NCBI RefSeq assembly: GCF_963921235.1
Contig: NC_086108.1
Span: 93,312,001-93,376,000, forward strand
Length of the DNA stretch: 64,000 nucleotides
Direction of reading: 5' to 3'
DNA from: Mobula hypostoma
Taxonomy: Eukaryota
The translations under genes were made by a program, and so were the position numbers. The notes beneath the pieces were generated by a model. That model ran no database searches. It was given only the letters and a program-made list of their open reading frames with translations, and was not told the DNA's origin. Below, piece by piece: positions 11,590 through 61,630 of the stretch. Every line of letters starts with the position of its first letter. The stretch's first letter is position 1.

Positions 11590-11838
11590 TTATTTGATGC
11601 AAAATTTACGCCTAGGTAATACGGTTTGGAAAACTACCGTGTCATACGGTTGCCTGTATGATATAAGCAATTGCTCTGGAATGATCTGGATCAGTGTGAA
11701 TCCACCCAAGGCACTAATCTCAGCATTGTAGAACTGCAGCCAGCTTTCCGGAATGTCCTTCTTGTGTGCTGTGGACTTGTCAACGATACTCCCACTTCCG
11801 CTAACGATGTATGCCGGCCCGTCATCCTCGCGAATAAA
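11590..11838 (-). CDS. ACP5: ACP5-like coding exon 6 (terminal): FIREDDGPAYIVSGSGS...LGGFT...FQTVLPRRKFCIK*
   Basis: Branch point CTAAC followed by tttgccctgcag| acceptor. 249 nt to TAA. Resembles the TRAP C-terminus (YxxSGxG, LGGF, TxLPRR). Confidence 0.95.
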   Translation of the reverse strand, partial: FIREDDGPAYIVSGSGSIVDKSTAHKKDIPESWLQFYNAEISALGGFTLIQIIPEQLLISYRQPYDTVVFQTVLPRRKFCIK

Positions 11839-13637
11839 CTGCAGGGCAAAGCGGAATGTGTTAGTGCGGTGCATTTCATATTTCAGTAACACTTGAGTAA
11901 TATTGTATGATTAAGCATTCTTTATTTGTTTAAATAATTCATTATGGTTATATGTACGAAGTGTGTGAACTGCATATGTCATCACATCACCGCTTCATAC
12001 ATTTATGTTTTGCTGAATGTAAAACTGAAATTAACATACACTCATTCTGAACTCTTCTGATTTCATTTCAATTAGTTTTATGTTTTGGAGTTACAAAACT
12101 TAACACTGGTGACAAGATATTTTTAAAACAAACCTAAGATAACTATCTACCTGTTGACGAGCAGTGAAATGTTTGAGTTTTAAAAAATGCAGCACTGGAT
12201 GTGTCTCTTCGGAAGGGAGAGCGAGCGAGGTGGTCAAGTCTTATAAAAAGGCAGAAAATGGATAATTCATAGGTTCATAAACAGTGAATACTGAGTGATA
12301 ATAATCATAATTTTCTAATAAAGTAGGAATGGCTGACCACATCTGAAAGATTGACATGTTCAAATGCACAAGAGACAACTGGATTTCACATACTAAGCAA
12401 ATTAAGCAGTAATTAAACCAAATGAGATAGCTAATGAGAAATAAGTACCAGCTTTGCTGAGTGCATTGAGTTTAAAAGCATACGGTTTCCTTAAAAGTTT
12501 GACTGTTCCGACCAAACCGGATGAAATGAACTTTGCTGATATCTTGAAAATAATACAGAAACATTTAGAACTGAAACCATTGTTGACTGCAGAATGCTTT
12601 AGCGTTCATAAGTGGAATCAAAAGGAAGGGGAGTCCATTTTAGCATACATGGCTGAATTGAAGAAGTTGTCTCAGCATTTTCTGTTCAGTGATGGGCTTA
12701 ATGATACACTGAGAGATCATTTAGATAGTGGAATCTAACAAGAAAGCATTCAAAAACAGCTCCTAGCTGATGCACAGCTCACATTTAAAAGAGTATTTGA
12801 AATTGCAGTATCAATGGAAACAGCAGACAGAGATGCAATGGAGTTGCAGTCAGGAATGAAAGTGAATGTGAACAAAACTGAAGCATCTCGATGGAGGCCT
12901 GTCTGGCCAAATAAATTGTGCTACCATTGTGGTACAGGCTCCCATACACCAGACTAAAGCATGTTCAAAGGCAAAAGATACAGAAAATGCAACAAAGTAG
13001 GACACATACAAAGAGCATGTCAGGCAAACAAGAATAAATGGACTGCACAGGGAAGAGAAAAAGATAAAAAGTCAAGTTGCAGTTTGAAAGAGACTACCAA
13101 TCTGCATGCTTTTGCTGAAAAGTCTGATAATGATGAGAGTGATACAGGATTGAGTAGTCTTGAGATTTACAATGTGAAAACTAACATACAAGAAATGTGG
13201 CTTACACCAGAAATGAATGGCAAATTAATTAAAATGAAATTTTAAAAAGCTCAGCTCTTTCAGTCATTCCACAAAATGAGTTTGAATGCCATTTCAAGGA
13301 TACTGAACTGAAGTCTACAGATATCCAATTAAGAATTTATATTGGAGAAAAGGTAACTCCTGTGGGAATGACAGTTGTAACAGGGAAATACAACATTCAG
13401 TGAGTAGCTGGTGAGCTCGATCACATGGAGATTGAAGAAATTATTTCCAAAGTTGAGTGGAACCCATGGGCAATGCCATTGGTCCCAGAAGCCAAGAAGA
13501 ATGGGTCTGCCAGGATCTTTGGTGATTTTAAAGTCACCGTCAACCTAGTGCTGAAAGTAGATCAATACCCTCTGTTCAGGATAGAGGATATCTTTGTAAA
13601 CCTTTCTGGAGGAAAACTCTTCAGCCAGGTGAACTTA

Positions 13638-15045
13638 CAGTGCCTATAAAAAGTATTCACCTCCCTTGGAAATTTTCACGTTTTATTGTCTTACAATATT
13701 GATTAACACAGTGATTCAATTTGGCTTTTTTGACACTGATAAACAGAAGAAGACTTTTGTGTCAAAGTGAAAACAGATCTCTAGAAAGTGATCCAAATTA
13801 ACTACAAATATAAAACACAAAATAATTGATTGCATAAGTATCCACCCCCTTTAATATGACACATTAAATCATCACAGGTGTAGCCAATTGATCTTAAAAG
13901 TCACGTAGTTAGTTAAATGGAGATCTGCTTTTGGAGATCTGTGTGCAGACAAGGTGTTTCAATTGACTGTAGTAAAAATACACCTGTATCTGGAAGGTCC
14001 AACTGCTGGTGAGTCAGTATCCTGGCAAAAACTACACCGTGAAGACAAAAGAACACTCCAAGCAACTTCACAAAAAGATTATTGAAAAGCATAATCAGCA
14101 GATGGATATAAGAAACTTTCCAAGTCACTGAATATCCTTGCAGTACAGTTAAGTCAATCATCAAGAAATGAAAAGAATAAGAATCAGCCATAAGTCTGCC
14201 TAGAGCTGGCCATCCTCAAAAAACTGAGTGACTATGCAAGAAGGGGATTAGTGGGGGAGGCCACCAAGAGACCTGTGACAACTCTGGAGGAATTACAAGC
14301 TTCAGTAGCTGAGATGGGAGAGACTGCACATACAACAACTGGCACTTCATCAGTTGCAGCTTTACGAGAGAGTGGCAAAGAGAAAGCCACTGTTGAAAAA
14401 ACTCACATGAAATCTCAGCTAGAGTTTGCTAGAAGGCATGTGGGAGACTCTGAAGTCAGCTGGAAGAAGGTTCTATGGTCTGATGAAACCAAAATTGAAC
14501 TTTTTGGCCATCAGACTAAACACTGCACATCATCAAGAACACGCCATCCCTACCGTGAAGCATGTTAGTGACTGCATCATGCTGTGGGGATGCTTCACTG
14601 CAGCAGGCCCTGGATGGTTTGTGAAGGTAGAGGGTAAAATGAATGCAGCAAAATACCAGGAAATCCTGGAGGAAAACCTGATTCAGTCTGCAGGAGAACT
14701 GCAACTTGGAAAAAGATTTGTTTTCCAGCAAGACAATGACCCCAAGCATAAAGCCAAAGCTACACAGGAATAGCTTAAAAACAACAAAGTTAATGTCTTG
14801 GAGTGGCCAAGTCAGAGTCCAAACCTCAATCCAAATGAGAATTTGTGTCTGGACTTGAAAAGGGCTATTCACTCATGATCCCCATTCAATCTGAAAGAGC
14901 TTGAGCAGTTTTGTAAAGAATGGGAGAAAAATTGCAGTGTCCAGATGTGCAAAGCTGGTAGGAATCTATCCACACGCACTCAAGCCTGTAATTGCTTCCA
15001 AAGGTGCATCTAATAAATACTGACTTGAAGGGGCTAAGTACTTAT
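13638..15045 (+). mobile_element. Tc1/mariner transposon (degraded, right TIR truncated) inside the Gypsy RT
   Basis: TA|CAGTGCCTATAAAAAGTATTC terminus. Motifs WSDETK, FQQDNDPKH and WPSQSPNLNP, with stops. Confidence 0.9.
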
Positions 15046-15185
15046 TGTCACACAAAGATTACACAAGTGTTTTGAGAAAGTTCAGTCTGTGGTGGATGCC
15101 CCAAAGCCAGAGAATGTGCCACAGTCAGAATCAGAGTCAGGTTTATTATCACCGGCAGGTGACGTGAAATTTGTTAACTCAGCAA

Positions 15186-15660
15186 ATTAACACCTGGCGG
15201 AGAATCTCACCTGATCCCTCGACACCAGCTCCATAGCAAAGAAGGCCCAGCAGCATCTTTACTTACTACGAAGGCTGAGGAAAATCCATCTCCCACCCCC
15301 ACCCTCATCCTCACCACATTCTACAGAGGTTGTATTGAGAGCATCCTGAGCAGCTGCATCACTGCCTGGTTCAGAAATTCCACCATCTCGGATTACAAGA
15401 CCCTGCAGCTGATACTGAGGTCAGCTGAGAAGATCATCAGGGTCTCTCTTCCCGCCATTACAGACAATTACACCACACTCTGCATCCGTAAAGCAAACAG
15501 CATTATGAAGGACCCCACGCACCCCTCATACAAACTCTTCTCCCTCCTGCCATCTGGCAAAAGACAGTGAAGTATTCGGGCTCTCACGACCAGACTATGT
15601 AACAGTTTCTTCTCCCAAGTCATCAGACTCCTCAATAACCAGAGCCTGGACTGACAGCAA
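15186..15660 (+). mobile_element. Rex1-like LINE 3' coding fragment
   Basis: AKKAQQHLYLLRRLRK..FYRGCIESILSSCITAWF..LLPSGKR motifs. Confidence 0.75.
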
Positions 15661-15725
15661 CTTACTGCCACTGGACTGAGCAGGGAGAAAATCACTTTTC
15701 TCAAACTCCATGTGTCTTGGGTCAG

Positions 15726-16428
15726 TGTGACTTGGGTCCCACCAAAAGCTCACACATTATGATCTGTGTGAATACTGTGTAAATACTGCCACCATGCAAT
15801 TAGCCAATGGCGAGAAATAACAGATCGTACACTGCAGACAATTATAAAGGAAGTATATTTACAAATTTCAGCTTTATCAATCAGTTAGTAGGAAAAAGAA
15901 AAGAAAAAAATTTTTAAAAAGGGCCTATTACAGTTAACCCAGTCCAAATGTGAACATAAGTTGGAGGTCATCTTGAAGTTGTCTTTAACTCAAGTGCTAG
16001 ACCCATGGTCTTCATGAAAGCACACACCATTTTACGAATGTTGCTCAAAATCCGTCTCAAACAAATGAACCGCGCCCCCCTCGCACCCTACAAGAGTATC
16101 GGTCCTTCCTCCTTGTTACACAAAGCACCTTGTGCAACAGGGATGGCATATTCAGTGATCTTCCCTCCTGTCTTCTCCCAGCTCCCGCCAAAAAGACCTC
16201 GATCCACACCAGCGTCCATCTCCAAAACCTCTCCACCCAGTGTTCTCTTCAGCCTTTTCTTATTCCACCATCCTGATTGGCTGACACAACACTCCTAAGT
16301 TAAACAACATAGCGCATTATCTTTAGCGCAAACCCAAACATGCTAAAAAGCAGAACAGACCGCTCTTACAGAACTACTAAAGTGAAATACCTACAGCCTA
16401 GCAGTAAAATCTTAGCCAGGGTGTTACA
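15726..16428 (-). mobile_element. Probable solo LTR (~700 bp)
   Basis: Bounded by TGTGAC...GTTACA (TG..CA with short inverted termini). No coding signal and no TSD seen. Confidence 0.4.
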
Positions 16429-16888
16429 TATATAAGTGAAGATGAATTCTACACTGAGTAGGAGTTTCTAGCTAAGCAAGGAGGAGTGTTGTGTAGTTAA
16501 TATTTCAGTAATATTGTAAATATATTGTATGACTAAGCAGTCTTTGTTTGTTGTAATAATTCATTATGGTTATATGTAGGAAGTGCGCGAATGGCATACG
16601 TCATCATATTGCCCAGTCATACACGCGCATCTCGCTAGAAGTAAAAATGAAACTAATATGCATCTGTGCCAGCTTCCCTTGTTTTTATTTCGATTAGATT
16701 TATGTTTTGGAATTAGATCCCCACCTTGTCTGGGAGCACCAGCTCTTCGCAACACTCAAGGGCTTCCTATAGACTCGCCTGTAAACAGCAAGCTGTTAAG
16801 GAGGTGAGTGGTATTGAATTTATTGAGTCAGCGTATAAAGAAATCTTACTGTGATTACGTAGGGAAAGCTAACATTGCAGATGCTATG

Positions 16889-17345
16889 AATCTGAAATAA
16901 AAGTTTAAAAACGCTGGAACGCTCACCTAGTCAGTCATCATCAGAGGAAAAAGAAGCAGAGTTAGTGTTTCAGGTCTGAGACCCCTCATCAGAAGTGGGA
17001 AGGAGAGAAGACAATTTAGTTTTCAGCAGCTGAGAAGACGGGTAGGACAAAACGGAATATCTTTGACAGGCAAAGGAATATCATTGATAGGCTGAGACGA
17101 AATGAGTTAACGTAGCAGTTACAACAGTTAGACACAGATGATACAGTCGTAGAGAATGGGAACTGGGCCTTCAGTCCATGCTAGTCTAACTGATCAGTGC
17201 TGACCAAGATTCTCATCTAAGCTCGTCCCATTATGCATTTTTACCCATGTATTCTGTTGCTAACAGCAATGATATGCCCAGTAAACCAGAATGAAATACT
17301 AGTCAGTGGAGCATTTGCCTTCTATCTGCAACTTCTTGTTGCCTA
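16889..17345 (+). repeat. Local direct repeat, copy 1 (~455 bp)
   Basis: Nearly identical to 19700-20157, including composite junctions. Confidence 0.9.
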
Positions 17346-17989
17346 ACATTTTAACTCACCATCAGACTTTCAGCTGAATCTGTCTAAATTGTTACAATAA
17401 GGGCCCAATGCATGCTTGAGGAACTATGCCTCGTTTTCTGTGTGGGCACATTGCAGGTTGTCGTACTCACCACCACAGTACCCAATTCTCTCACTTGAGC
17501 TATCTCACTCTTTCTTTTCTGTCTGTACTGGAACCAGCCATTTCTGTCACTCATCACATTGGCTCAGTTTGGCAATTCCTCAGCACTAACCTCGTGTTTC
17601 CTGGCAAACCATAATGATATACAGCCACTTTTCAAAGAACCCCACTATTTGGAGTTGGGAAATAATGTGGTGTGGCAAAAGGCCAGTTTGTCGGAAACAC
17701 GAATTTCATCACATCCATGATCGAACAAAGGATGAGTAAAACCAGTTGCTGAATCTTTATAATTCCTTCCATAAAACTCTCAATCTCCGTATAATTCTTT
17801 ATTTTGCCTCTTAAAACCTACCTCTTCACTGTTTGGTTGCTTGTCTCAAGGTGTCTTTCTGTGACCTATTCATGTTTCAGTTTATTTTTTAATTATTTTA
17901 GTTTTTGAGCTTGATCTAAACAGAAAACAGCACATTCTTCAACACAAACGAATGGAATTTGCTCCAGGGCAGCCTTCCCCTGTAACATA

Positions 17990-18546
17990 CACTCAGTGGC
18001 CACTCTATTAGGTACCTCTTGTACATAATAAAGTGGCCACGGAGTGATGTTCATTGTCTTCTGCTGCTGTAGCCCATCCACTTCAAGGTTCGACATGTTG
18101 TACATTCAGAGATGCTCTTCTGCACACCACTGTTGTAAGACTTGGTTAATGAGTTACTGCTGCATTCCTGTCTGTTAGAACGAGCCTGGACATTCTCCTC
18201 TGAACTTCTCATTAACAAGCCACTTTCACCCACAGAATTGCCACTGATTGGATGTTGTTGTTTATCGCACCTTTCTCTGGTAAACTCTAGCGACTGTTGC
18301 GTAAGAAAATCCCGGGAGATCAGCAGTTTTTGAGATACTCGAACCATCCTGTCTGGCAAGCAACAATCATTCCACAGTCAAAGTCACTTAGATCAAATTT
18401 CTTCCCCATTCTGGTGTTTGGTCTCCACAACCACTGAACCTCTAGGCCATATCTGCACTCTTTTATGCAGCCACATGGATGGCTGGTTAGATGTTTGCCT
18501 TAACAAGTAGGTGTACAGGTGTAGCTAATAAAGTGGCCACTGAGTA
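17990..18546 (-). mobile_element. Non-autonomous Tc1-derived element
   Basis: TIRs CACTCAGTGGCCACT(C/T)TATTA flanked by TA. Truncated HTH-transposase remnant. Same family as 49021-49554 and 61777-62253. Confidence 0.8.
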
Positions 18547-18854
18547 TATATCAGAGGAAGGACGTCTCTTTGAGGTATGCCTATCCTGAAGAAGTTTAAA
18601 TTTTCTCTTCAACAGGGGGTCAGTGAACCCTCTCACAATACTCTCCCTCTGTGATCCCTGCTGCTCTCTGGCTCCTCGACCATGTTCTGTTGCACGGGGC
18701 GACTGAGGAGAACCCAAGTGCAGGACACTGGCACGTTGACTGAGTTGGGCATACTGGCGTAGACGTGAATGTAGAACAGCAAACCGGAGGAATCTTGACA
18801 AGGAGACGGGATCTACAGGGACTATCTTGAAACTAGAGCAGAACTTAGAACTAA

Positions 18855-19100
18855 ACTTCTTCACACAGAGAGTGGTGAATCTGTGGAATTCTCTACCACA
18901 GCAAACTGTTGAGGCCAGTTCATTAGCTATGTTTAAAAGGAAGTTAGATATGGCCCTTGTGGCTACAGGGGTCAGGGGGTATGGAGGGAAGGCTGGGTTC
19001 TGAGTTGGATGATCAGCCATGATCATAATAAATGGCGGTGCAGGCTCGAAGGGCTGAATGGCCTACTCCTGCACCTATTTTCTATGTTTCTATGTTTCTA
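18855..19100 (+). mobile_element. CR1 3'-end fragment
   Basis: FFTQRVVNLWNSLP-coding sequence, CR1 3' UTR and (TTTCTATG)n tail. Confidence 0.85.
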
Positions 19101-19438
19101 AACCAGGTGTACCGTAATTAAGTAAACTAGCAGCAATTGGAAATCTAATGGCTGTAATTAGGGCATAACCAGGGAGAAAAGAGCGTTAAAGGGGAACAAC
19201 CAAACGGAACCATGACATGTTCTCCACCAGACTCATTACCTTGTCTCCTTCCCCTACCTCACCTTCTTATTCTGGCTTCTGCCCCTTTTCTTTCCAGTCC
19301 TGGTGAAGGGTCTTGGCCCGAAACATTGATAGTTTATTCCCCTCCATAGGTACTGAGTTCCTCCAGAATTTTGCTTTGCTGAGATCAGATGGGATCAGAT
19401 ACTTTAAAACAGGTACTCATAAGTTCAATGTTTCCTAC

Positions 19439-19586
19439 CTGCAGGCTGTGGTCATGGCCGCTGATGTAGGCTGTCACGTTGTATGTTTTTAGAAGTGGCC
19501 TCAGCTGATCCATGAGACAAGGAGTTGGACCGTGATGCCCAATGGACCATACAGGGTAGTGACCAGCAACTATCAGGTAGTCTGCC
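19439..19586 (-). CDS. ACP5: ACP5-like coding exon 5: [49 protein letters not shown]
   Basis: Acceptor ttacttcag|, donor CAG|gtagga, 148 nt. VAGHYP and GHDH metal-ligand motifs. Confidence 0.97.
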
Positions 19587-19699
19587 CTGAAGTAACAGCA
19601 CAGTGGATTTAACACCTGTAAATTCCATTATTTATCAAAGAGGTTTGAGCTATCATCATCATTATCACCATTATGTGCCATATTGTATGACATGTTATA

Positions 19700-20157
19700 A
19701 ATCTGAAATAAAAGTTCGAAAATGCTGGAACGCTCACCTAGTCAGTCATCATCAGAGTAAAGAGAAGCAGAGTTAGTGTTTCAGGTCTGAGACCCCTCAT
19801 CAGAAGTGGGAAAGAGAGAGAACAATTTAGTTTTCAGCAGCTGAGAAGACGGGTAGGACAAAACGGAATATCTTTGACAGGTAAAGGAATATTATTGATA
19901 GGCTGAGACGAAGTGAGTTAATGTAGCAGTTACAATAGTTAGACACAGATGATACAGTCGTAGAGAATGAGAAGGGGCCCTTTGCTCCATGCTGGTCCAA
20001 ATGGTCGATGCTGACCAAGATTCTCATCTAAGCTAGTCCCATTATGCATTTTTATCTGTGTATTCTGTTGCTAACAGTAATGACACGCCCAGCAGTCCAG
20101 ACGGAAATAATAGTCTGTGGGGCATCTGCATTCTATCCACAACTTCCTGTTGCCTGA
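19700..20157 (+). repeat. Local direct repeat, copy 2
   Basis: Long exact blocks shared with 16889-17345, e.g. GAAGCAGAGTTAGTGTTTCAGGTCTGAGACCCCTCATCAGAAGTGGGAA. Confidence 0.9.
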
Positions 20158-20997
20158 TATAGCTTTAACCATGATTATTCTGGGTGAATTTTTGGACAGA
20201 AGTGGTGTCCCATTGCCTTCTTCTAGGCAGCGTCTTCACAAGACGGGTGACCCGAGCCATCATCAGTACACTTCAGAGATTGCATGGAGTCAGTGGTCAC
20301 ATAACCAGGACTCGCGATATGCACCGGCTGCTCACACGAACATTCACCACCTGCTCCCATGGCTTCAAGTGACCCTGATCGGGGGGATAAGCAGGTGCTA
20401 CACCTTACCCAAGGGTGATCTGTCGGAGCACCTTACACCAGATGTATCTCCACCCGCCACCTGATTTAAGGTATGAATTTACAAAATAAACCATTGTGGT
20501 TTTTTAAAATTATTGGACGGATGCACAGTGTTCAATAATATTGCAAGTACTGAGATTTTTATAACTGCTGTTTACAGTCTTTTAATCACTGTTTGCATTC
20601 ATTTAATATATCTCAAGGAAAGTGATCACAGCTTTATCAAGAGACACTTATACAAAACCTTGTAGGAAAGCATTGGAACAAGCAACCAGATGGTAAAGAG
20701 TATGGTTTAAAAAGCCAAAACAGGATGCGAAAGATTGAGAAACACACATTAAATACACACACATCACACAAACAAGGTCTGTGGAAATGCAGCAGGTCAG
20801 GTAGTATCTAAGGAGGGGAACAAACAGTTGATGTTTCAGGCCGAGACCCTTCGTCAAGAGAGATTGAGAGTTTTACAGAAGGAATTCAAGAAAAAAGACA
20901 GCTGGAACTGCTTAATCTTCAATTATGAGTTTGATGATACTAGTGGTCAATGATCAACTTCATTTCAAAGTCAATTAATTATTGTGCCATCCCCCTT

Positions 20998-21280
20998 GGT
21001 GGCACGATAGCGTGGTGGGTAGCACCACACCTTGCAGTGCCAGGGACCGGGGTTCAATCCCCACCTCTGTCTGTAAGGAGGTTGTGCTGTACGTTCTCCC
21101 TGTGACCGCTTGGGTTTCCTCCGGGTGCTCCAGTTTCCTCCCATAGTCCGAAGATGTACCAGTTGGTAGGTTGGTTGGTCATTGTAAATTATCCCATGAT
21201 TAGCCTGGGATTATGGGTGGCATGGCTCAAAGGGCCAGAGAACCTATTCCACACTGTATCTCAATAAATTTAATAAAAAA
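20998..21280 (+). mobile_element. tRNA-derived SINE
   Basis: A-box-like TAGCGTGGTGG, B-box GGTTCAATCC, central GGGTTTCCTCCGGGTGCTCC and A-rich tail. A related copy lies at ~45251-45552. Confidence 0.75.
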
Positions 21281-21294
21281 TTTAAAATGCCTTT

Positions 21295-26861: not shown

Positions 26862-27053
26862 CTGGAACTCGCCAGCTTTTTCTGGATCCACTGAAGTTGC
26901 TTTTGGGCTAAATGAGGATTTTCCGGTCCTATTGGCTGGTTCCTTTCATATGTGTTTCCACAGATCACAACGGTGTCAATCATCAGAATGGTGACAGAAA
27001 CATTGGTATTAGGAATCCTGAAAGTCAACTCATAGTAGAGATCCGGAAAATTC
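26862..27053 (-). CDS. ACP5: ACP5-like coding exon 4: NFPDLYYELTFRIPNTNVSVTILMIDTVVICGNTYERNQPIGPENPHLAQKQLQWIQKKLASS(R)
   Basis: Acceptor ttgttatag|, donor AG|gtaact, 192 nt (phase 2-2). TRAP-like WNFP..YY and IDTVxxCGN segments. Confidence 0.96.
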
Positions 27054-39222: not shown

Positions 39223-39350
39223 CATCTCTTAGAAATTCCTGAATAAGCAATCTGTGCTGACACATTACCCAAATGATCATGGTTCCCTGCCAGAATGTAC
39301 CATGGTATCTCGACAAGGGAGGGAGCTTTAAAAATGTTCTCAAATGTTTC
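39223..39350 (-). CDS. ACP5: ACP5-like coding exon 3: [42 protein letters not shown](W)
   Basis: Acceptor tctgaatag|, donor TG|gtaagt, 128 nt. GNHD metal motif and GNVS glycosylation sequon. Confidence 0.97.
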
Positions 39351-41270: not shown

Positions 41271-41571
41271 AGACACCTATACTTCTCATGATCAATAATG
41301 TGTGGAAAATTATTTGGAGTTTTATTTCTTTTCAATGGAGAATAGAACCAGGTGTCTCGTCTAAGTAACTTCAAGACAGTGTATGTGGCCTCTGTGACTT
41401 TCCAAGCTCAATATGAGGAGCATAGAGATGTAGACACCAAGTTAGCATACAAACGTTTGTACTTTGGGAATATAGCATTACTGAATATCATCAGCCTAAA
41501 CACATTTTATGAGAGTATTCAAAAATTTCACTTCCTCTTAAATATGACTATAACGAATTAACAATATTCAC

Positions 41572-41765
41572 CTTAAATCTGTGGTCATTTACACTTGTCA
41601 CACCGTGGAAGTAGAAGTTATCTCCGACATTAAGCACAAAATCTACTCCAAATTTTTGGGCAATTCTCCCCATCTCTTGTGCTGTGGCTCTCTGGATGTC
41701 AGTCACATATGGTGGATGAGGGAGGCCTCCCCCATCTCCAAAGGCAATAAATTGGATGGCATTAT
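41572..41765 (-). CDS. ACP5: ACP5-like coding exon 2: NAIQFIAFGDGGGLPHPPYVTDIQRATAQEMGRIAQKFGVDFVLNVGDNFYFHGVTSVNDHRFK
   Basis: Not in the ORF track; read manually. Acceptor ttttaattataag|, donor AAG|gtgaat, 194 nt. Carries PAP motifs GDxG and GDNFY. Confidence 0.95.
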
Positions 41766-50718: not shown

Positions 50719-50791
50719 CTTTTTGTAGATAGGATTGTGCATATTGGAAATAAAGGATAGCCATGCAAAGTAGTTGTTGAAACCGGCCCAT
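50719..50791 (-). CDS. ACP5: ACP5-like coding exon 1 (signal peptide) MGRFQQLLCMAILYFQYAQSYLQK(D)
   Basis: ATG in strong Kozak context (atcATGG). Basic/hydrophobic/small-residue signal-peptide pattern. Donor AAG|gtaagc. The 73-nt phase-1 end matches the phase-1 acceptor of exon 2, giving a 327-aa protein, close to mammalian TRAP length. An in-frame upstream ATG lies at 50830. Confidence 0.75.
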
Positions 50792-51048
50792 GATCAAACA
50801 ATAGGAAACATATGACTGGGCAACACACATGCAGCGTAGTCTGATTTTTACATGTGCTTGAGTCTTTTCTTCAAAGTAAAAAATTTACACAAAAACTTTA
50901 AAAGAAAACATTAGTTCTTCTGTGTTCATGAAGCCAACAAGCTGTAGTAGCAGCAAAAGACTGACTTTAGCAGCCAGTCTGTTTGTTAAAGACAGTTAGG
51001 ACCGGATTTCCAGAAATACACTTTTGAAATATGTTCTTCCTTTTTATA
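50792..51048 (-). promoter_or_regulatory. Candidate ACP5-like core promoter/5' UTR: TATAAAAA box and two CATGTG E-boxes
   Basis: Minus-strand TATAAAAAGG at 51048-51039. CATGTG/CACATG at 50851-50856 and 50826-50831. Lies in the only non-repetitive block upstream of exon 1. Confidence 0.35.
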
Positions 51049-51689
51049 AAGGAAATCATTACCAAAGTGTTAAATTTAATATCGCATCTAAGATTTTTTA
51101 CTACATTGTAAAGTAACTTTGTTTTGGCTCATAGAGTAATTGCATCATAATTCAGTGTTGCAATGGTTTCAAGAACAAAGGCAACAGAATGTTGATTTAC
51201 AGTATCACGGATTGTTGGGTGTTCTAATCTACTCTTTAGTACCTTTCATATTTCTTTACTTTTTGTTAGACAAGGATATTTTCAAGATAAATTACCAATT
51301 CTAAATCCGATTCATATTTGGCCCAATGAGATATGGGGAAATTCTGAAATCAATTGGAAGGCTTTTTTTTAATGTTGAAAATTCAAATACTTTTTATGTT
51401 CTTGTCTCCATATAGTGATGGCAACGTACAGGTGATCGCTGCTGGTAAAACCAAATACTGTTGTATCACTTCTAATAAAGATGACGGAGAACAAATCTGA
51501 GTTCTATCAGCTCACATTCTTTAAAAAGATCATCTGCCAGGTATCTCATAGAAGATATATGGCTTCAGTCAAAGTTCAAAGTACATTTATTATCTAAGTA
51601 TGTATACATTATACAACCTTGAGATTCATCTCCTTATGGACAACTACAAAACATAGAAACCCAAGAAAGAAAATGCGGTTTGGAGCACT

Positions 51690-54600
51690 GACCAGCACCC
51701 AATCACAGACTGGAAGCCTGAGAAGATGTAGTTCACACAGGTTTGCCAATTGACTAGAAGAGGGCAGTTGACTCACAGCAATTTGGAGCTTTGAGCAGCA
51801 GCCAATCAGAGTTTGGGATTGATTGTCAAGATGGAATTAAAGTAAGGCAGGGGCAGTTGGTGTGGCCATTGTCAGAATAGCCATGGTTGAAGGGGACAGA
51901 GTTAGAGTTGGGATTTTGAGGCTTCAGTAAGGAGAAGCTTGAGGCTTGAATGAGAGACGGCAAAAAAGTTGTAGGTAGAGTTTTTTCTCCCCCTGCTGCA
52001 TTTTATGCTTTTTTTCCTTCTTTATATTTGCTCAGCTAGAACAATAGAGATGCCAGGCAAGATAGTGGAATGCTCCTCTTGCTGGATGTGGGAAGGCAGG
52101 GAGACCTCCAGAAGGCTGTGGAGGCTGAGTCTCTGGATGCTTTCAAAAAAGAGATGGATAGAGCTCTTAATGATAGCGGAATCAAAGGTTATGGGGATAA
52201 GGCAGGAACTGGATACTGATTGTGGATGATCAGCCATGATCACAGTGAATGTTGGTGCTGGCTCAAAGGGCCGAATGGCCTACTCTTGCACCTATTGTCT
52301 ATTGTCTACACCTGCAAGAAGTGCATCCAGCCACAGCTTCTAACACTCCGTGTTAAAGAGTTAGAGCTGGAACTAGATGAACTCCAAATCATTCAGGAGG
52401 CTGAGGGGGTGATAGGTAGGACATATAGAGAAATAGTTACACACAAGGCACAGGACACAGGAAACTGGGCGACTGTCAGGAAAAGGAAAGGGGTTAGACA
52501 GCCAGAGTACCTCTGTGGCCATCCCCCTCAACTACAGGCATGCCACTTTGGATACTGTTGAGGGGGAATGACCTAGCAGAGGAAAGTTACAGTGGTTGGG
52601 TCTCTGGCATTATCTGGATCCATGAAGGGAAGTGGGGGGGAGAAGGGACAAACTGTGGTAATAGGGGATTCATTAGTTAGGGGATCAGAAACGAGGTTCT
52701 GTGGATGAGAACAAAATTCCAAAATGGTATGTTGTCTCCTGAGTGCCAAGATCCAGAACGTTTTGGATCGAGTCTCAGCATTCTTAAGTGGGACAGTAAA
52801 TTGACAGAAGACGTTGTCCTTGGAAGTACCAATGATGTAGGTAGAAAAAGTGATGAGGTTCTACAGAGTGAGTTCAGGAAGTTAGGTGCTAAAAGGACAG
52901 AACCTACAGGATTGTGATCTCAGGATTGCTACCAGTGCCATGTACTAGTGAGGCCAGAACTAGGAAGATTATACAGTTTAATACGTGACTAAGAAGTTGG
53001 TGGAGGAGGGAGGGCGTAAGATTTTTCAATCATTGGGCTCTCTTCCAGAAAAGATGTGACCTTTACAGAAGGGACAGTTTGTACTTGAACTGGAGGGGAA
53101 CTAATATCCTTGCAGGAAGGTTTGCTGGAGCTGCACGGTGTGGTTTAAACTAGAATCAAAGGGGGATGGGAACCAGAGTGCCAGAATGGATAGTGGAGAG
53201 GTCGTGGAAGCAGATGTTGGTCTGACCTCAAAGTCAGGAACCAAAAGGTTGAGCATGGTGTGACTATTGTCTTAAGTTGTGTATATTTCAATACCACAAG
53301 TATCATAGGAAAGGCAGGTAAGCTCAGGGTATGGATCAACACCTGGAATTATGATTTTGTAGTTATTAGTGAGACTTGTTTGCAGGAGGGATAGGACTGG
53401 TAGCTCAATATTCTGACTTCCGTTGTTTTAGACGTGACAGAGCAGTAATGATTGAAGGAGGAGGGGTGGCACTACTATTCAGGGAAAACGTCATGGCAGT
53501 GCTCAGTGAGGACAGACCGGAGAACTCGTCTGGTGGGGTGTTAGGGGTGGAACTGAGAAATAAGAAAGGAATGACCATGTTAATGGGGCTATATTACTGA
53601 TCACTCAACAGTCCAAAGGATTTAGAGGAACAAATTTGTTTAGGAGATCACAGACTGTTGCAAGAAACATAAGTTTATTATAGTAGGAGATTTTAACTTT
53701 CCACATACTGACTGGGATTCCCATACTGTAAAAGGACTAGGTGGGATAGGGTATGCCAAATGTGTTCAGGAAAGTTTCCTTAATTGGTTCATAAAAGTCC
53801 CATTGAGAGAGTGTGCGATACTGAATCTGCTATTAGGCAATGAGACAGGGCAGGTGACAGAAGTTTGTGTAGGGGAACACTTTGTGTCTAGTGACCACAG
53901 TGCCATTAGTTTCAAAGTAAATATGCAAAAAGATAGGCCTGATCTGTGGTTTGAGATTCTAAATTGGAAAAAGGCCAATTTTGATGGTATCTGAAAGGAT
54001 CTGGCAGTGTGGACTGGGACAGACTGTTTTCTGGCAAAGGAGTACTTGATAAAGTGGAGACCTTCAAAAGTTAAATTTTTGAGAGTACAAAGCTTGTATG
54101 TGACTGTCAGAATAAAACATAGAGATCAAAGTATAGGGGACCTTTGTTTTCAAGAGATATTTAAGTCCTGGTTAAGGAAAAAAGAGTTACTTAGCGGGTA
54201 TAGGCAGGTAGGAACAAATGATGTACTTATGGAGTATAAGAAATGCTAGAGAACACTTAAGAAAGAAATCAAGAAGGCATGAGGTTGCCCTAGCAGACCA
54301 GGTGAAGGAGAATCCTAAGGAATTTTACAGATATATTAAGAGCAAAAGTATTGCAAGGAACAAAATTGGTCTTCTGGAAAATCAGGTTGGTAACCTATAC
54401 ATGGTATAAATGGGGTGCTTATAGATTATAAGAAATGCAAGAGTACACTTAAGAAAGAATTCAGGAAGGCTAAAAGAAGGTATATTGTTGCCCTAGTAGA
54501 CAAATTGAAGGAGAATCCAAAGGGATTCTACATACATGCTAAGAGCAAAAGCATTACAAGGGACAAAATTGATCCTCTGGAAGATCAGAATGGTAATCCA

Positions 54601-56250
54601 TGTGTGGAGCCAAAAGAGACGGGGGAGATCTTAAGTAATTTTTTTACACCTGTATTTATTCAGGAGACAGATACAGATTCCACAGAAGTGAGACAAAATG
54701 GAGTTAACTTCATGGACCCTATACAGATTACAGAAAAGGAGGTGTTTGCTACCCTGGGGCAAAGTAAGGTGGCTAAATCCCCAGGACCTGACAAGATGTT
54801 CCCTTGGACTCCGCAGGAGGCAAATGTAGAAATTGCCAGGGCCCTGAGATAATTAGATCATCCTTAGTGACAGGCGAAATACCAGAGGGTTGGAGGATAG
54901 CCAACATCATTCCCCCATTCAAGAAAGGCTCTAAGAATAAACAAGGAAATTATAGGCCTGTGAGCCTGACATCAGTACCGTAATGGGAAAGCTGTTGGAA
55001 GGTATTCTGAGGGACAGGACATATTTGGATAAACGTGGACTGATTAAGGATTGTCAGCATGACTTTGTGCGTGGTAGGTCATGTCTAAACAATCTTGGAG
55101 TTTTTCAAGGAAGTTGCCAGGAAAGGGAATTAAGGCAGGTGAGTGAACGTTGTCTACATGGACTTTAGCAAGGCATTTGACAAGGTTCCACATGGGAGGT
55201 TGGTCAAGAAGGTTCAGTGGCTCAGCATTCAAGATGAGGCAGTAGATTGGATTAGACATTTGCTTTGTGGGAAAAGCTGGAGAGTGATAGTAGATGCTTG
55301 TCTCTCTGACTGGAGACCTGTGACTAGTGGTGTGCTGCAGGGATCAGTGCTGGGTCTGTTGTTGTTCGTCATCTATAGTCACAATGATAATGTGGATAAC
55401 TGGATGAGCAAATTTGAGGATGACATCGAGATTAAGGGTGTAATGGGCTGAAAAATGGCAGATGAAATTTAATGCAGACAAGAGCAAGGTGTTGCACTTT
55501 GGTAAGACCAACCAGGGGAGATCTTACACAGCGAACAGTAGGGCACGGAGGAGTATGGTAGAACATAGGGATGGGGGAATACAGGTCCATAAGTTGTTGC
55601 AAATGGCATCACGGGTAGATAGGGTCATTAAGAAAGCTTTTGACACATTGACCTTTTTAAATGAAAGTATTGAGTACAGGAGATGGGATGTTACGTTGAA
55701 GTTGTATAAGACATTGGTGAAGCCTAATTTGGAGTATTGTGTGCAGTTTTGGTCTCTCACTTACAGGAAAGATGTAAATAAAGTTGAAAGAGTACGGAAA
55801 AAAAATTACAAGGATGTTGCCAGGTCTACAAGGAAAGATTGAATAGGTTAGGACTTTATTCCTTGGAACGTAGATGATTTAAGGGAGATTTGATAGAGGT
55901 ATACAAAATTATGAGGGGTACAGATAGGGTAAATGTCAGTGGGCTTTTTCCACTGAGGTTGGGTGGGACTACAACCAGAGGTCATGGGTTAAGAGTGAAA
56001 GGTGAAAAGTTTAAGGGGAACCTTCTTCACACAGAGGGTCATGAGAGTGCGGAAAGAGTTGCCAGCACAAGTGGTGCATGCAAGCTCGATTTCAACATTT
56101 AAGAGAAGTTTGGATAGGTGAATGAACGGTAGGACAAGGGACTGTGGTCCCAGTGCAGGTTGATGGGAGTAGGCAGTTTAAATGTTTCGGCACAGAGTGA
56201 ATGGGCTGAAGGGCATGTTTCTGTGCTGTACTTCTCTCTATAATTCTATA
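51690..56250 (+). mobile_element. Full-length-like degraded CR1 between ABCD3 and the ACP5-like gene
   Basis: ORF1 CSSCWMW..TCKKC, interrupted by a CR1 3' fragment at ~52110-52305 with a (TATTGTC)n tail. Esterase [27 protein letters not shown], and 3' UTR. Confidence 0.88.
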
Positions 56251-56459
56251 ACCTATAAAAAGACCATCAAGCACCCAATGTGCTGAGAGAGAAAAAAACA
56301 AATCATGCAAACAATAAAAGTAAGCAAATAGCATTCAGAGCAAAAGTGAGTCCACAGACACAAAGTCTGGAGCAGGTCATAGCCTCAGCCTGTTTAGCAC
56401 ACAGCTGAGTAAACATTGCAGAGCAATGAGCACAAACCACACTCAATACACCACATAAC

Positions 56460-57965
56460 ATGTCATAGTCATAGTATTTATATGACATGAAAACACAGAC
56501 CTTTTGGCTGACCAAGATGCCAAATCCAGGTTAGTCCCCCTTGCCAGTGTTTGGCCCATAACTTTTTAACTCTTTCCAATCAATGTACCTGTCCAACAGT
56601 CTTTTAAAAGTAAACAACAGGAATTCTGCAGATGCTGGAAATTCAAGCAACACACATCAAAGTTGCTGGTGAACGCAGCAGGCCAGGCAGCATCTGTAGG
56701 AAGAGGTGCAGTCGACGTTTCAGGCTGAGACCCTTCGTCAGGACTAACTGAAGGAAGTAAGTGAGTAAGGGATTTGAAAGTTGGAGGGGGAGGGGGAGAT
56801 CCAAAATGATAGGAGAAGACAGGAGGGGGAGGGATAGAGCCAAGAGCTGGACAGGTGATAGGCAAAGGGGAATACGACAGGATCATGGGACAGGAGGTCC
56901 CATGATCCTTATAAAAGTCCTTATTATACCTGCTTTAGTCACTTCCTCTGGCAGTTCATAGTAGATACCACCCGTTCCATAAAAAAGTTGCCCCTCAAGT
57001 TCCTCTTAAATCTTTCCCCTCTTACCGTAACCCTATGCCCTCTAGTTGATTCCCCAGCCCTGGGGAAAAGACTGAGTGCATTCAGCCTAACTGCACCCCT
57101 CATGATTTTATATACCTCTATTGATCACTTCTCATTAAGTGATCTATACTCCAAGGAATAAAGTCATAGCCTGTCTAACCTCTCCCTATTACTCAATGCC
57201 CCAAGTCCTGACAACATCCTTATAAATCTTTTCTAACCAGTGTAATAAAGTATTTTCTACAGCCAGAGCTGCCACAAACTCTTATCTAGCCTCCCAAAGT
57301 GTTCTTTTAAGACATCCAACACCTCCTATACTCCATCTCCAAGACCATCCATTTACTTTTCCTAGCTCCAAAGTCCTTTCTCCACAGTAAAAACAGCGGA
57401 GAAATATTCACATAGGATCCTGACTCATTTCCTGTGCCTCCCCAGAAAGGTATCTCCTTAAGGGACCCTATTTTCTCTCTCCAGTTACTCTTTTTTCCTT
57501 AATATACTTATAAAATGGATTTTCCTTAATCTTTGCCAAAGTTATCTGGTCCCATTCATGCCCTCCTTATTTTCTTCAAGTACATTCCTGCATCCCTTAT
57601 ACTCATCTAGCTGCTTGTAACTGACATTTCTTCTTTCCTGGTAAGGGCTTAATGTCCCTCATCATCCAGGGTTTCCTCCTCCTGCCAGCCTTGTCCTTCA
57701 CTCTAACAGGAACCTGAAGACCTTGATCGCACGCTATCTAAGCCTGTAAAAGCCTCCCATTTGCCTTGCCCCTTTGACTGCAAACAACCTACCTAATCAA
57801 CCTTTGCAAGTTCCTGCCTCATATTGTCAAAGTTCACCTTGCTCCAATTTAGAACATGAACCTGTAGACCAGTTCTGCCCCTTTCCATCACTACTTTAAA
57901 ACTAATAGAACTATGGTCACTGGTCCCAAAGTGCTCCCCTATTGTCACCTCAGTCATTTTCCCAG
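56460..57965 (-). mobile_element. Old CR1 fragment with a Penelope-like insert (~56611-56900)
   Basis: Reverse CR1 3' UTR/tail (CATAGT)n and APE-region remnant (EHFGTSDHSSISFK on the minus strand). Confidence 0.65.
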
Positions 57966-57969
57966 TAAG

Positions 57970-58433
57970 TGACTGAGTAGTTCAGTGATCAAAAAATCAA
58001 AATATTTACTCATACAACATTAACACACAGAACTTAACATTCACTGTCTTTATTTTTTCTGTAAAACATTAGGAAATGAATTGTAGATATCAAATTATTG
58101 CATAACAAGAACATGCCATTATGTAGTGCATTCCTAGGTTACTTCATTTGTACTGTACATTAAACATTACAAGTTATTTTTATTACAGTATTAATTCAAA
58201 CATTTCCTAGATGAACATTACTGGGTCATTACTGGATCTCATTATTAATATTTCCAAATATACAGCTCTCGACAAGACTACAAATTAATCAATAGTTCAA
58301 TTTTATTACAGTATTTTAAAACTGAGAATTAATTACAAACTGAAATATTTAGTGCAGGATAAAATGCATATTGTACAGACTTCTTTTGCAAGTCATCCAC
58401 TTCCTCTGTCAGAAACAGATCGACAGATGGATT
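57970..58433 (-). other. ABCD3: ABCD3 AU-rich 3' UTR with candidate AATAAA signals
   Basis: AT-rich unique sequence after the stop codon. Minus-strand AATAAA at 58302-58307, 58179-58184 and 58049-58054. The 3' end is approximate. Confidence 0.55.
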
Positions 58434-58511
58434 TTAAGAACCAAATTCTACTGTGTCAGCAGTAATTGGCTTAAATTCATAATTCCCTCTGCCATCCATG
58501 TGCAGATAATA
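58434..58511 (-). CDS. ABCD3: ABCD3 last coding exon YYLHMDGRGNYEFKPITADTVEFGS*
   Basis: Acceptor ttttgttctcag|, 78 nt to TAA. Characteristic ABCD3 C-terminus DTVEFGS. Confidence 0.97.
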   Translation of the reverse strand, partial: YYLHMDGRGNYEFKPITADTVEFGS

Positions 58512-59371
58512 CTGAGAACAAAAGAAAAACAATGTTATAAATCATAAGAAAACCAAGAACAGGTTAGGAGAAATTAATATGAACAATCATGAAATTAGTA
58601 CTAATAACAATTGGGAAAATGAGGGTGCATTTTGAACTACTGAGCCAGTAAATGGTTAAATCATCCAAATCAAATTTTAATTGTATTTTGAGATTAAAGA
58701 TAATTTATTGAGGTATTAAGAAATTTAAAGAGTTACTTTCTTCATACAAAATGTACTGCAGGTTGTATTGTTTCCTTCAGCAATGTTTAAAACGCATGCA
58801 TGTTCACAAATACGTACAAATAACCATTATATTATGCACCATTTCATAATGCAGCTCATTTTAGCAGGATTAGGTACCTAATTACTGCAACAGCTTGCAG
58901 GAAGAGTAGTTTAAATTTAAGTTGCTTAAGATTGATAAGAATCTAACAATTCTATTCTGGAGTTTTAGCAGTGGCTTTTCTGACAGTGTTGAACCTGAAC
59001 AATATTACAAGTTTAAGTGAAATGGACTAACAGGCCTATTTTAAGTTTACAACTCCACGGACACAAATTCAAATTAGACAATACTAAATAATTTGATCTT
59101 CACGGGCCATGGTCAAATGAAACTATAGTACCTACAGTCAAAGCAATGAGGATATCACCAGTTTGGGTGTAGAAGTTTAACATACGAATACTCAACCCAA
59201 GAATTCCAGTGGAATAAAACTAATTTTGTTAAATTAACCTGTTCTTGTGCTTTCAGTTCTGTTTTGTTTAGCTTACTCTGCTAAAATAGACACTACTATT
59301 ACATCCAACAGAGAACACATTACCCATCCTGTCTGCTGGTTGCTCTCTCAGAGACAGTTTCCCACACGATA

Positions 59372-60779
59372 CAGTGCCTTGCAGAAGTATTCCGTCCCCA
59401 ACCCTTTGTTCACATAAATGACTATTACAGCCAGGGACTTGATCAATTTAACTGGAATTTTTATTTGTGAATTACATGCATTTTTTTCATAATTACAACC
59501 AAAGATAGGGGAAAATTGTAAAGCATGAAAAACTAAAAATTCAAGAAATGAAATGTTAGCAGTTCAAAAGCATTCATCCCCCTTTGTTACAGTTGAACCA
59601 CCTCTCGCAGCTATTACAGCCAGTAGTCTTTTTGAATATGTCTCTAGTAATTTTGCACAAAGTGATAAAGCAGGATTTGCCCATTCCTCCATGCAAAATA
59701 GCTCCAAGCTGTGCCAGGTTAATTGAAGAGCAGAGTAATTTATGAGGTCTTGCTAGAGATATTCGATCAGGTTAAAGTCAAGACTCTGACTGCGCCACTC
59801 AAGGACGTCAATTTTCCTCATTTGAAGCCACCCCATAGCATGATGCTACCTCCACCATACCTTACAGTATGGATGGTGTTACCTGGCAGATGCACGGTAT
59901 TAGATTTACGCCACTCACACGACTTAATACTGAGGCCAAAAAGTTCCACTTTACTTTCTTCCGACTACAAGACTTTCTTCCACATGTTTACAGTATCTTC
60001 TAAACTGTGCTTTGCAAAGTCTTTATGGGCAAGGATATGCTTTTTTTTTGCCAGAGCTTCATCTTTGCCACTCTTCCATAAAGACCCTTTTGTGCAAGGC
60101 CTTAGAGATTGTGGAGCCATGAACTTCATCTCCAGTTGCAGCTGATGACTTCTGCAGCTTGCTCAGTGACTGTTGGCATCACAGTAGCCTCTCTCGTAAG
60201 TGCCATTTTTCTCTGGCGACTAAGTTTAGAGAGGTGGTCTGACCTAGACACTGTGACTGTAGTTCAATTTTTTTTCCATTTTTTCACGATGCACTGAGCT
60301 CCAAGGTAAGTTCATGCCTTTGAGATAGTCTTGTACCCTTCCCCAGATTTGTGTTTCTCTATTATCATTTCCCTGACTTGTTTTGTATGCTCTTTTGCCT
60401 TCATTTTGGTTTGGTCTGCAGAAAACCTACCATACTGTTGGATCTTACAGACCGAGGGGTATTTATTCTTATAAATTCATTGAAAACGGGAGTGATCCTC
60501 CAATTTTCTACATCAACAAATTGGGTGAGTTGGAAGGGTAATAAGGTAATGCGCCTGAGCAAAGTTAGTGTAGTAACTACAAAGGGGATGAATACTTTTT
60601 TAGCCTCACAATTGGGTTTTTAAGTTTTAGTAAATTGTTGAGAAGTTTTGGAATTCTTCTTTTGATTTGACATGATGCACAAAGTTTTGTAGCTTAGCTC
60701 AAAAATCCTACAATATATTTTAAATTTACAAAATGAGAAAGAAAATAGTTGTGGTAGCTGAATACTTTTTCAAGCACTG
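59372..60779 (-). mobile_element. Tc1 transposon with both TIRs, in the last intron of ABCD3
   Basis: TA|CAGTGCCTTGCAGAAGTATTC ... GAATACTTTTTCAAGCACTG|TA. Degraded minus-strand transposase ([10 protein letters not shown] motif). Confidence 0.88.
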
Positions 60780-60912
60780 TAACTGTTTAAGATTACGCTC
60801 GAGGATAAAGTGCAAACTTGCTAATAACTTCTGGTTTTTTTTTAGAAGAATTCACTATTTATTTCATGGATTTTCTTCTGCATTTCCAGTCTGTTGACAT
60901 TTCATTACTAAC

Positions 60913-60969
60913 CTCATGATGAGTCCAGAGAGACTTTCTGTGTGACACAGTGAACAAAGTGATGCCAAC
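60913..60969 (-). CDS. ABCD3: ABCD3 penultimate exon VGITLFTVSHRKSLWTHHE
   Basis: Acceptor ttcccaaaag|, donor GAG|gttagt, 57 nt. H-loop (VSHR). Confidence 0.96.
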
Positions 60970-61525
60970 CTTTTGGGAAAAAAATCATTATGGATGACAA
61001 TCTTCACAAAGGACAAAATATTAATTGTCAATAGGCACAAAGATTGTATTATAGACTCTTTTATATCTTTTACATAAGTCTAAATAGTACAAAATGATGT
61101 ATATAAAATACTACAAAGTTTATGCATTAAAATTCATTACGGGAACACAAAGCAATCAGATCAAACATACTTAGCCACAGAAGAACTGTAACTCTTAGCT
61201 TTACATTCCTCACTCTCACAAAGTACATTCATGTTCTCCATTGCACTATCGTTAAGGTATATTTGACGTTTGAAAAAGTAATTTCGACATGAAGAACAAT
61301 AGAGGAAGAGAGAGGATGTATTTTAAACTAGTTTTAAGATTTCCGTTAGCAATAAGTAAACATCATATAAACATGTCAATTAAAGAATAACACACGATTC
61401 AAATGTTAGTTTCAATTTCTTTTATAATTCAAGAGGACTTGAAGTATTAAGAATTATAATGTAAATACATTGTTGCTGAAATACATATTTTATGTAATGT
61501 TTCCTTCTTCAGCATCATGGCTTAC

Positions 61526-61630
61526 CTTTCTGCAGTGGCTGTAGATATAGCCTTCAACATCAACACTAACTGCGCTGGTACATTCATCTAAAATAGCAAA
61601 CTGTGGTTTGTGGTAGAATAATCGAGCCAT
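61526..61630 (-). CDS. ABCD3: ABCD3 (PMP70) internal exon [35 protein letters not shown]
   Basis: Acceptor taatatag|, donor AAG|gtaagc, 105 nt. Walker B/D-loop [10 protein letters not shown]. Matches the vertebrate ABCD3 sequence as I recall it. Confidence 0.97.

What the first reader, a model, noticed from the sequence alone, without database searches (positions are those of the whole stretch)
11590..61630. Intact ACP5/TRAP-family gene directly downstream of ABCD3: candidate ohnologue absent from mammals
Seen: six GT-AG exons (73+194+128+192+148+249 = 984 nt) join in phase into a 327-aa secreted purple acid phosphatase. All seven metal ligands are present (D in GDxG; D and Y in GDNFY; N in GNHD; H in VAGH; H and H in GHDH), as are the two disulfide Cys (ICGN, PCL). 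It lies tandem to ABCD3, about 7.6 kb after its stop. Established: human ABCD3 (1p21) is followed by F3, SLC44A3 and CNN3 with no ACP5, while human ACP5 (19p13.2) lies near CNN1 and SLC44A2; these regions belong to a known paralogon. Inference: this is the 1p-side whole-genome-duplication paralogue of ACP5, kept in this lineage and lost in mammals. That is notable for an osteoclast-marker enzyme family in an animal that probably lacks true bone. It may correspond to the teleost acp5b-type gene rather than being wholly new.
Basis: partly seen in the sequence, partly recalled or inferred. Interest (0 to 1): 0.8.

Follow-up and report, generated by a model that had tools for sequence, protein, structure and literature searches.

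The report
Fish acp5b: ancient short-loop TRAP twin
This is the already annotated acp5b phosphatase gene of a devil ray, likely a genome-duplication twin of the mammalian bone-resorption marker TRAP that land vertebrates likely lost, and its self-inhibiting loop is two residues shorter, so it is predicted to need less activation by proteases.

Summary
Six GT-AG exons on the minus strand give a 327-aa purple acid phosphatase with all seven metal ligands, 7.6 kb after the ABCD3 stop; junctions 1-2 and 2-3 are spliced in 4 of 4 runs laid. The gene is not new: RefSeq's Mobula hypostoma 'type 5b' protein is encoded by this window letter for letter (360/360, via an alternative seventh exon), and that species also has acp5a on another sequence. 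Trees reject a teleost-specific or shark-specific origin, and a published table places gar acp5b beside cnn3 (alpha1) and acp5a near cnn1 (beta1), pointing to the jawed-vertebrate 2R duplication. No tetrapod acp5b was seen; lungfish keeps one, so the loss is likely tetrapod-wide rather than mammalian. The bone argument is weak, since the family predates bone. New here: all 105 acp5b proteins examined have a repression loop two residues shorter than 119 of 121 ACP5/acp5a and lamprey proteins, and 102 lack its first aspartate. Weaker self-inhibition is predicted but untested.

The parts
50719..50830 (-). acp5b coding exon 1; ATG at 50791 (327-aa form) or 50830 (13 aa longer, used by RefSeq models); hydrophobic N-terminus, predicted signal peptide
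   Evidence: spliced to exon 2 in 4 of 4 runs, contig reaches 50978
41572..41765 (-). exon 2 (194 nt): ligands D35, D73, Y76
39223..39350 (-). exon 3 (128 nt): N112, H113
26862..27053 (-). exon 4 (192 nt): C163 and the repression loop, two residues shorter than in ACP5/acp5a
19439..19586 (-). exon 5 (148 nt): H205, H214, C219, H240, H242
11590..11838 (-). exon 6 (249 nt) with stop codon; internal donor after 11610 used by the RefSeq 360-aa model; polyA-type hexamers at 10864 and 10794
3605..3684 (-). alternative seventh exon of RefSeq model XP_062919532.1 (26 other C-terminal residues); not tested with reads
58434..61630 (-). last three coding exons of ABCD3 (61630-61526, 60969-60913, 58511-58434), upstream neighbour on the same strand; its 3' contigs stop at 58038-58044 near a hexamer at 58054
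   Evidence: the name ABCD3 rests on recalled C-terminal motifs (Pfam gave no hit on the 35-aa exon)

Best explanation
The window encodes an intact, spliced acp5b purple acid phosphatase that likely arose as the twin of ACP5/acp5a in the second, jawed-vertebrate genome duplication, was likely lost in tetrapods, and is predicted to be less self-inhibited because its repression loop is two residues shorter. How it works: a predicted signal peptide sends it to the secretory/lysosomal route (inferred); seven conserved ligands would hold the two-metal centre that hydrolyses phosphomonoesters at acid pH (ligands shown; chemistry from family knowledge and from the assayed tilapia orthologue). Origin: the alpha1 copy beside ABCD3/CNN3 became acp5b and the beta1 copy beside CNN1/ELOF1 became ACP5/acp5a (inferred from tree plus synteny). 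After duplication the b stem evolved faster and shortened the loop that keeps mammalian TRAP latent until a cysteine protease cuts it (shortening shown; effect inferred). Likely role: a general phosphatase of liver, gut and macrophages rather than a dedicated osteoclast enzyme (inferred from tilapia and hagfish expression). Odds by step: intact expressed acp5b 0.98; duplication older than crown jawed vertebrates 0.95; genome-duplication origin 0.9; 2R rather than 1R 0.7; tetrapod-wide loss 0.8; weaker self-inhibition 0.4.
For: Identity: RefSeq XP_062919532.1 equals a 7-exon reading of the window, 360/360. Fold: AlphaFold model of the 98% identical M. birostris protein, pLDDT 88.7, matches pig and human PAP at 1.3-1.4 A. 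Tree: a|b split 100/100 among 49 jawed-vertebrate rows; b clade 99/98 with outgroups and 99/97 with the loop columns removed. AU tests reject teleost a+b (p 3e-7), chondrichthyan a+b (p 1e-7) and the window protein inside the a group (p 4e-6). Both copies in one species on different sequences: M. hypostoma 118.1 vs 31.4 Mb, M. birostris 117.8 vs 31.3, Leucoraja 61.9 vs 12.3, catshark 244.3 vs 26.0, lungfish two different sequences. Synteny, supplement file 6 of PMC10972751: gar acp5b LG10:14.275 Mb, 57 kb from cnn3a (alpha1); gar acp5a LG6:17.27 Mb, 0.6 Mb from cnn1b and elof1 (beta1); bamboo shark family members on chr11 and chr34, 0.5 Mb and 73 kb from calponins; chicken and Xenopus one member each, beside ELOF1 and a calponin; lamprey and hagfish one each. 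Loop: Cys-to-Pro segment of 10 residues in 105 of 105 b proteins, 12 in 119 of 121 a/lamprey proteins; the first Asp is kept in 112 of 120 twelve-residue loops but 3 of 105 b loops. The mammalian loop restricts activity, about 100 vs 1000 U/mg before and after cleavage (PMC7098635, PMC7081696).
Against: Lamprey falls inside the a group in the best rooted tree (88/83, unstarred), which would suggest a 1R split; lamprey-outside is merely not rejected (p 0.315), and a-group monophyly is unresolved in rooted trees. Lungfish b groups with sharks rather than ray-finned fish; the species-tree placement is borderline (p 0.051). The published table labels this family CLGB and 'nd', so it does not itself call the pair ohnologues; alpha1/beta1 is borrowed from neighbours. 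ABCD3 adjacency was shown only in this window. Tetrapod absence rests on 120 of 477 and 120 of 1011 listed hits plus two tetrapod genomes in one truncated table. For the loop: counted from the Cys, the second position is still Asp or Glu in 86 of 105 b proteins, Glu in this one, so an inhibitory carboxylate may remain; the tilapia b enzyme from E. coli had pH optimum 5.0 and kcat 0.27 per s, resembling the latent rather than the cleaved mammalian form (an uncontrolled comparison). Zebrafish acp5b signal was reported at intermuscular bones.
Confidence: 0.72

Rival explanations
1. The pair split at the first (1R) duplication, before lampreys diverged; lamprey kept only the a-type copy.
For: Lamprey sits within the a group in the best rooted tree, 88/83, and at 95 in the FastTree run.
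Against: Lamprey-outside is not rejected (p 0.315); the grouping dissolves without the loop columns; neighbours are labelled alpha1 and beta1, the same 1R copy; shared ancestral states and a fast b stem can pull lamprey to a.
Confidence: 0.15
2. A single-gene duplication and translocation in stem jawed vertebrates put a copy next to ABCD3, unrelated to genome doubling.
For: The family is assigned to CLGB by invertebrate position while the vertebrate copies lie on CLGL/M segments, so the gene has moved at least once.
Against: Both copies lie within 0.06-0.6 Mb of paralogous calponin genes in gar and shark; lamprey ACP5 is also on a chromosome with a calponin, so the move came earlier.
Confidence: 0.07
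3. acp5a and acp5b are teleost-duplication twins and the ray gene is a mislabelled ACP5 orthologue or a shark-specific duplicate.
For: The a/b suffix convention usually marks teleost duplicates (own knowledge).
Against: Rejected by AU tests; gar, bowfin, lungfish and chondrichthyans have both types; Conger has two a-type proteins plus a b-type.
Confidence: 0.01
4. The ancestry is as described, but the shorter loop is neutral or still inhibitory: acp5b is latent and protease-activated like TRAP.
For: Acidic residue kept at the second loop position in 86 of 105; both cysteines kept; tilapia enzyme pH optimum 5.0 and low kcat.
Against: That position is Asp in 120 of 120 twelve-residue loops but free to vary in sharks, rays and lungfish (Q, H, N, K, A); the loop holds 2 of only 4 columns that separate the clades at 85%.
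Confidence: 0.45

Closest known systems
[quoted passage not shown]
   Same: The same gene: 360/360 for the M. hypostoma model, 321/327 to M. birostris, one clade with zebrafish acp5b.
   Different: The 327-aa reading ends at the exon-6 stop, as in the M. birostris, Hemitrygon and Hypanus proteins; the M. hypostoma model uses a seventh exon.
Mammalian ACP5/TRAP/uteroferrin (PDB 1WAR, 2BQ8, 1UTE, 1QHW)
   Same: Fold, seven ligands, both cysteines, 50-52% identity.
   Different: Paralogue, not orthologue; loop two residues shorter with Tyr after Thr in place of the first Asp; GDGG for GDWG. The mammalian isoform names 5a/5b mean uncut/cut products of one gene and are unrelated to the fish gene names.
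Tilapia TRAP5b (PMC10138680; passages and Discussion read)
   Same: Orthologue, 56% identical; tartrate-resistant pNPP phosphatase, highest in liver, induced by bacteria.
   Different: The paper notes two branches but has 0 hits for 'duplicat', 'synten' or 'cleav', and 'loop' only in its reference list.
Chondrichthyan acp5a (e.g. XP_062892015.1, M. hypostoma)
   Same: Same family, same species.
   Different: About 50% identical for the catshark and M. birostris a-types, on a small 31-Mb sequence, full-length loop with both Asp.

Membership tests
Small (animal-type) purple acid phosphatase / TRAP | Seven metal ligands in five motifs, including the Tyr that gives the purple colour | tested here: met
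   D35, D73, Y76, N112, H205, H240, H242
Small (animal-type) purple acid phosphatase / TRAP | About 35-kDa single metallophosphoesterase domain with the PAP fold | tested here: met
   PF00149 above cut-off; rmsd 1.3-1.4 A to mammalian PAPs; both run on the 98% identical M. birostris protein
Small (animal-type) purple acid phosphatase / TRAP | Cleavable signal peptide | tested here: inconclusive
   Hydrophobic N-terminal stretch, peak hydropathy 2.6 against 1.9-2.9 in seven relatives; no signal-peptide predictor available
Small (animal-type) purple acid phosphatase / TRAP | Tartrate-resistant acid phosphatase activity, di-iron centre | not testable with these tools
   Activity reported for the tilapia orthologue
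ACP5/acp5a orthologue group | Groups with mammalian ACP5 and acp5a | tested here: not met
   p-AU 4e-6
ACP5/acp5a orthologue group | Full-length repression loop with two Asp | tested here: not met
   10 residues against 12, Cys to Pro
acp5b orthologue group | One clade with zebrafish, gar and other annotated acp5b | tested here: met
   99/98; 99/97 without loop columns
2R ohnologue pair | Duplication before the shark/bony-fish split | tested here: met
2R ohnologue pair | Duplication after the cyclostome split | tested here: inconclusive
2R ohnologue pair | Both copies in paralogous segments labelled alpha and beta of one 1R copy | tested here: met
   Via neighbours in gar; the family's own label in that table is 'nd'; shark members are unnamed there, so their a/b identity is inferred from position
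2R ohnologue pair | CNN1/ELOF1 beside acp5a and F3 beyond acp5b in this genome | not testable with these tools
   No genome held

The most novel reading that the evidence does not exclude
acp5b is a naturally de-repressed TRAP: soon after the jawed-vertebrate genome duplication one copy deleted the two loop aspartates and became active without cathepsin cleavage, a gene-encoded counterpart of the cleaved mammalian 5b form, kept from sharks to lungfish and teleosts and lost when tetrapods came to rely on one protease-switched enzyme.
Probability: 0.35. Interest if true: 0.6.

Novelty: already known. Interest (0 to 1): 0.33.

Why it matters
Zebrafish and other fish are used as bone models and acp5b has been used there as an osteoclast marker (PMC9135397). 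If acp5b is a paralogue as old as jawed vertebrates rather than a teleost co-orthologue of ACP5, only acp5a models human TRAP deficiency, and histochemical TRAP stain in fish and sharks may report two different enzymes. The two-residue loop difference is a natural experiment on how TRAP latency works and is easy to assay. The gene itself is annotated, so the value lies in these two readings, which my searches did not find stated.

Tried and rejected
Whole-genome search: no genome held; the second copy was shown through RefSeq proteins instead. F3 left of the gene: ORF listing of 1-11600 and Pfam on 8 hand-picked ORFs of the 93 listed found two reverse-transcriptase relics and no tissue-factor hit; short exons would be missed, so this says nothing on F3. 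My first exon-2 coordinates were off by one and were corrected. No run was on record as RNA; contig depths were not used to rank genes. No contig bridging ABCD3 and acp5b was among the rows listed (most rows not shown). Literature: 'acp5b' 20 papers, none on its origin by title or abstract start; 0 papers, 40 of 125 listed, all with 0 mentions of acp5, 25 of 625 listed, none on this. Supplements of PMC13450315 (1 file), PMC8302630 (6 files) had no ACP5; PMC9135397's gave no positions. The ohnologue database behind PMC13450315 and subscription journals could not be searched and may already list the pair. PMC13319145 passages gave nothing on loop aspartates. Earlier scan findings: none. No complex prediction was run, since no binding is claimed.
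Full report
Observation. A six-frame motif scan found the purple acid phosphatase motifs on the minus strand. The seven ligands are D35, D73, Y76, N112, H205, H240 and H242; C163 and C219 are present. The last three ABCD3 exons lie upstream on the same strand, the stop 7,643 bases before the ATG (the name ABCD3 rests on recalled motifs). Contigs of 4 of 4 runs laid, from 2 studies, skip introns 1 and 2 exactly, and one contig matches exons 1-3 without a difference and runs to 50978. The runs are RNA only by the tool's guess, but the intron-free joints speak for transcripts. Junctions 4-5 and 5-6 were outside the stretch laid.

Identity. Exon 6 as query returned 7 proteins, all chondrichthyan and all named 'type 5b'. 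The RefSeq M. hypostoma protein XP_062919532.1 is reproduced letter for letter by exons 1-5, exon 6 cut at 11610 and a seventh exon at 3684-3605. So this locus is already annotated as acp5b. A model of the M. birostris protein (98% identical) matches pig, human and rat PAP.

Age of the duplication. Of the 120 best of 477 hits, 99 are b-type and 21 a-type by best BLAST match. The b-types are from chondrichthyans, lungfish, gar, bowfin and teleosts; 10 unnamed ones nest among teleosts. A sturgeon b-type fragment came (named). A tree of 49 rows (48 chosen by hand from those 120, plus the window protein) splits a from b at 100/100, with sharks, lungfish and ray-finned fish on both sides. With 35 rows including two lampreys and six invertebrates, b is one clade at 99/98 with a long stem, and stays so without the loop columns. 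A teleost origin and a chondrichthyan origin are rejected, as is placing the window protein with the a group. Against a clean picture: a is not resolved as a clade in rooted trees, lamprey falls inside it with unstarred support, the outgroups are long, lamprey-outside has p 0.315, and lungfish b sits with sharks (species-tree placement p 0.051).

Synteny. Supplementary file 6 of PMC10972751 (rows read; file cut when stored) lists 8 members of the family: one each in lamprey, hagfish, Xenopus and chicken, two each in gar and bamboo shark. Gar acp5b is 57 kb from cnn3a (alpha1); gar acp5a is 0.6 Mb from cnn1b and elof1 (beta1). The shark members are 0.5 Mb from an alpha1 calponin on chr11 and 73 kb from a calponin on chr34. 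Chicken ACP5, ELOF1 and CNN1 lie within 5 kb on one scaffold, while chicken chr8 carries CNN3, SLC44A3 and ABCA4 and no listed family member. In that paper alpha and beta are the two progenitors of the jawed-vertebrate allotetraploidy and the digit is the 1R copy (passages), so alpha1/beta1 neighbours imply a 2R pair. The table itself leaves the family unclassified (CLGB, 'nd'). SLC44A3 and slc44a2 fall in different families and linkage groups.

Loss. No tetrapod protein was b-type among the 120 listed or the 95 new ones; 357 and 891 further hits were not shown. Coelacanth and bichir b-types were not seen either. Lungfish keeps one, so a loss on the tetrapod stem is the simplest reading, but it is inferred.

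The loop. Against human and rat TRAP the only internal gap is two residues, placed on the Asp-Asp right after Cys-Gly-Asn-Ser. From that Cys to the next conserved Pro there are 10 residues in 105 of 105 b proteins and 12 in 119 of 121 a and lamprey proteins (one has 15, one could not be anchored; isoforms and close relatives are counted, so this is one inherited event). Lamprey has the long form with both Asp and a sea urchin has both Asp, so the short form is derived. In mammals this loop keeps TRAP latent until a cysteine protease such as cathepsin K removes it, about tenfold in activity with the pH optimum moving from about 5 to 6 (PMC7098635 and PMC7081696, passages); the loop peptide quoted there begins with the two Asp. 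That these aspartates contact the active site (Funhoff 2001; Strater 2005) is recalled; I saw only the titles in reference lists and the PDB title of 2BQ8, and searches found no text on it. The alignment is ambiguous: read from the Pro, both Asp are deleted; read from the Cys, the first became Tyr and the second position is still acidic in 86 of 105, Glu here. The tilapia enzyme made in E. coli as an MBP fusion had pH optimum 5.0 and kcat 0.27 per s, which does not support de-repression but lacks an acp5a control or cleavage test. I put weaker self-inhibition at about 0.4.

Biology. The bone argument is weak. Rays keep acp5a too; family members exist in lamprey, tunicate, echinoderms, molluscs and Nematostella; hagfish ACP5 peaks in intestine and tilapia acp5b in liver. 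One zebrafish study used acp5b as an osteoclast probe and saw signal at intermuscular bones together with sp7.

Verdict. A real, expressed, already annotated gene. The readings I did not find in print (searches, open-licence library only) are the pre-teleost origin of the acp5a/acp5b pair and the clade-wide shortened loop. Interest 0.33; 0.6 if de-repression is confirmed.

Noticed in passing
window 3684-3605 (-) and donor after 11610: The RefSeq M. hypostoma model ends in a seventh exon lying among broken frames (3615-2479) that look like a decayed DNA-transposon gene by eye (no Pfam support); it may be an exonised repeat or a modelling artefact. By length arithmetic one contig ends near 11614, close to this donor.
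   Followed up: partly
window 41742-41731 (-), first metal motif: GDGG replaces the usual GDWG in 11 of 105 b-group rows and lungfish has GDCG; the whale-shark-side species Stegostoma and Scyliorhinus keep Trp. It is next to a ligand and might alter the active site.
   Followed up: no
P0349, P0411, P0017 (Conger); P0091, P0098: Eels and relatives have two a-type proteins plus a b-type; the second a-type is likely the true teleost-duplication twin of acp5a.
   Followed up: partly
P0079 cluster: Zebrafish has a second acp5b-like protein (XP_073797034.1) on the same 46.2-Mb sequence as acp5b.
   Followed up: no
window 50830 and 50791 (-): Two in-frame ATGs 13 codons apart; the downstream one has the stronger context and aligns with the start of other chondrichthyan proteins.
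   Followed up: partly
window 8835-10301 (+), 6503-7495 (-): LINE-type reverse transcriptase relics downstream of the gene (PF00078); more such frames lie in the introns.
   Followed up: yes
P0161 (Acipenser ruthenus): The only sturgeon b-type seen is a 218-aa protein; no bichir or coelacanth b-type appeared, hinting at further independent losses or decay.
   Followed up: no
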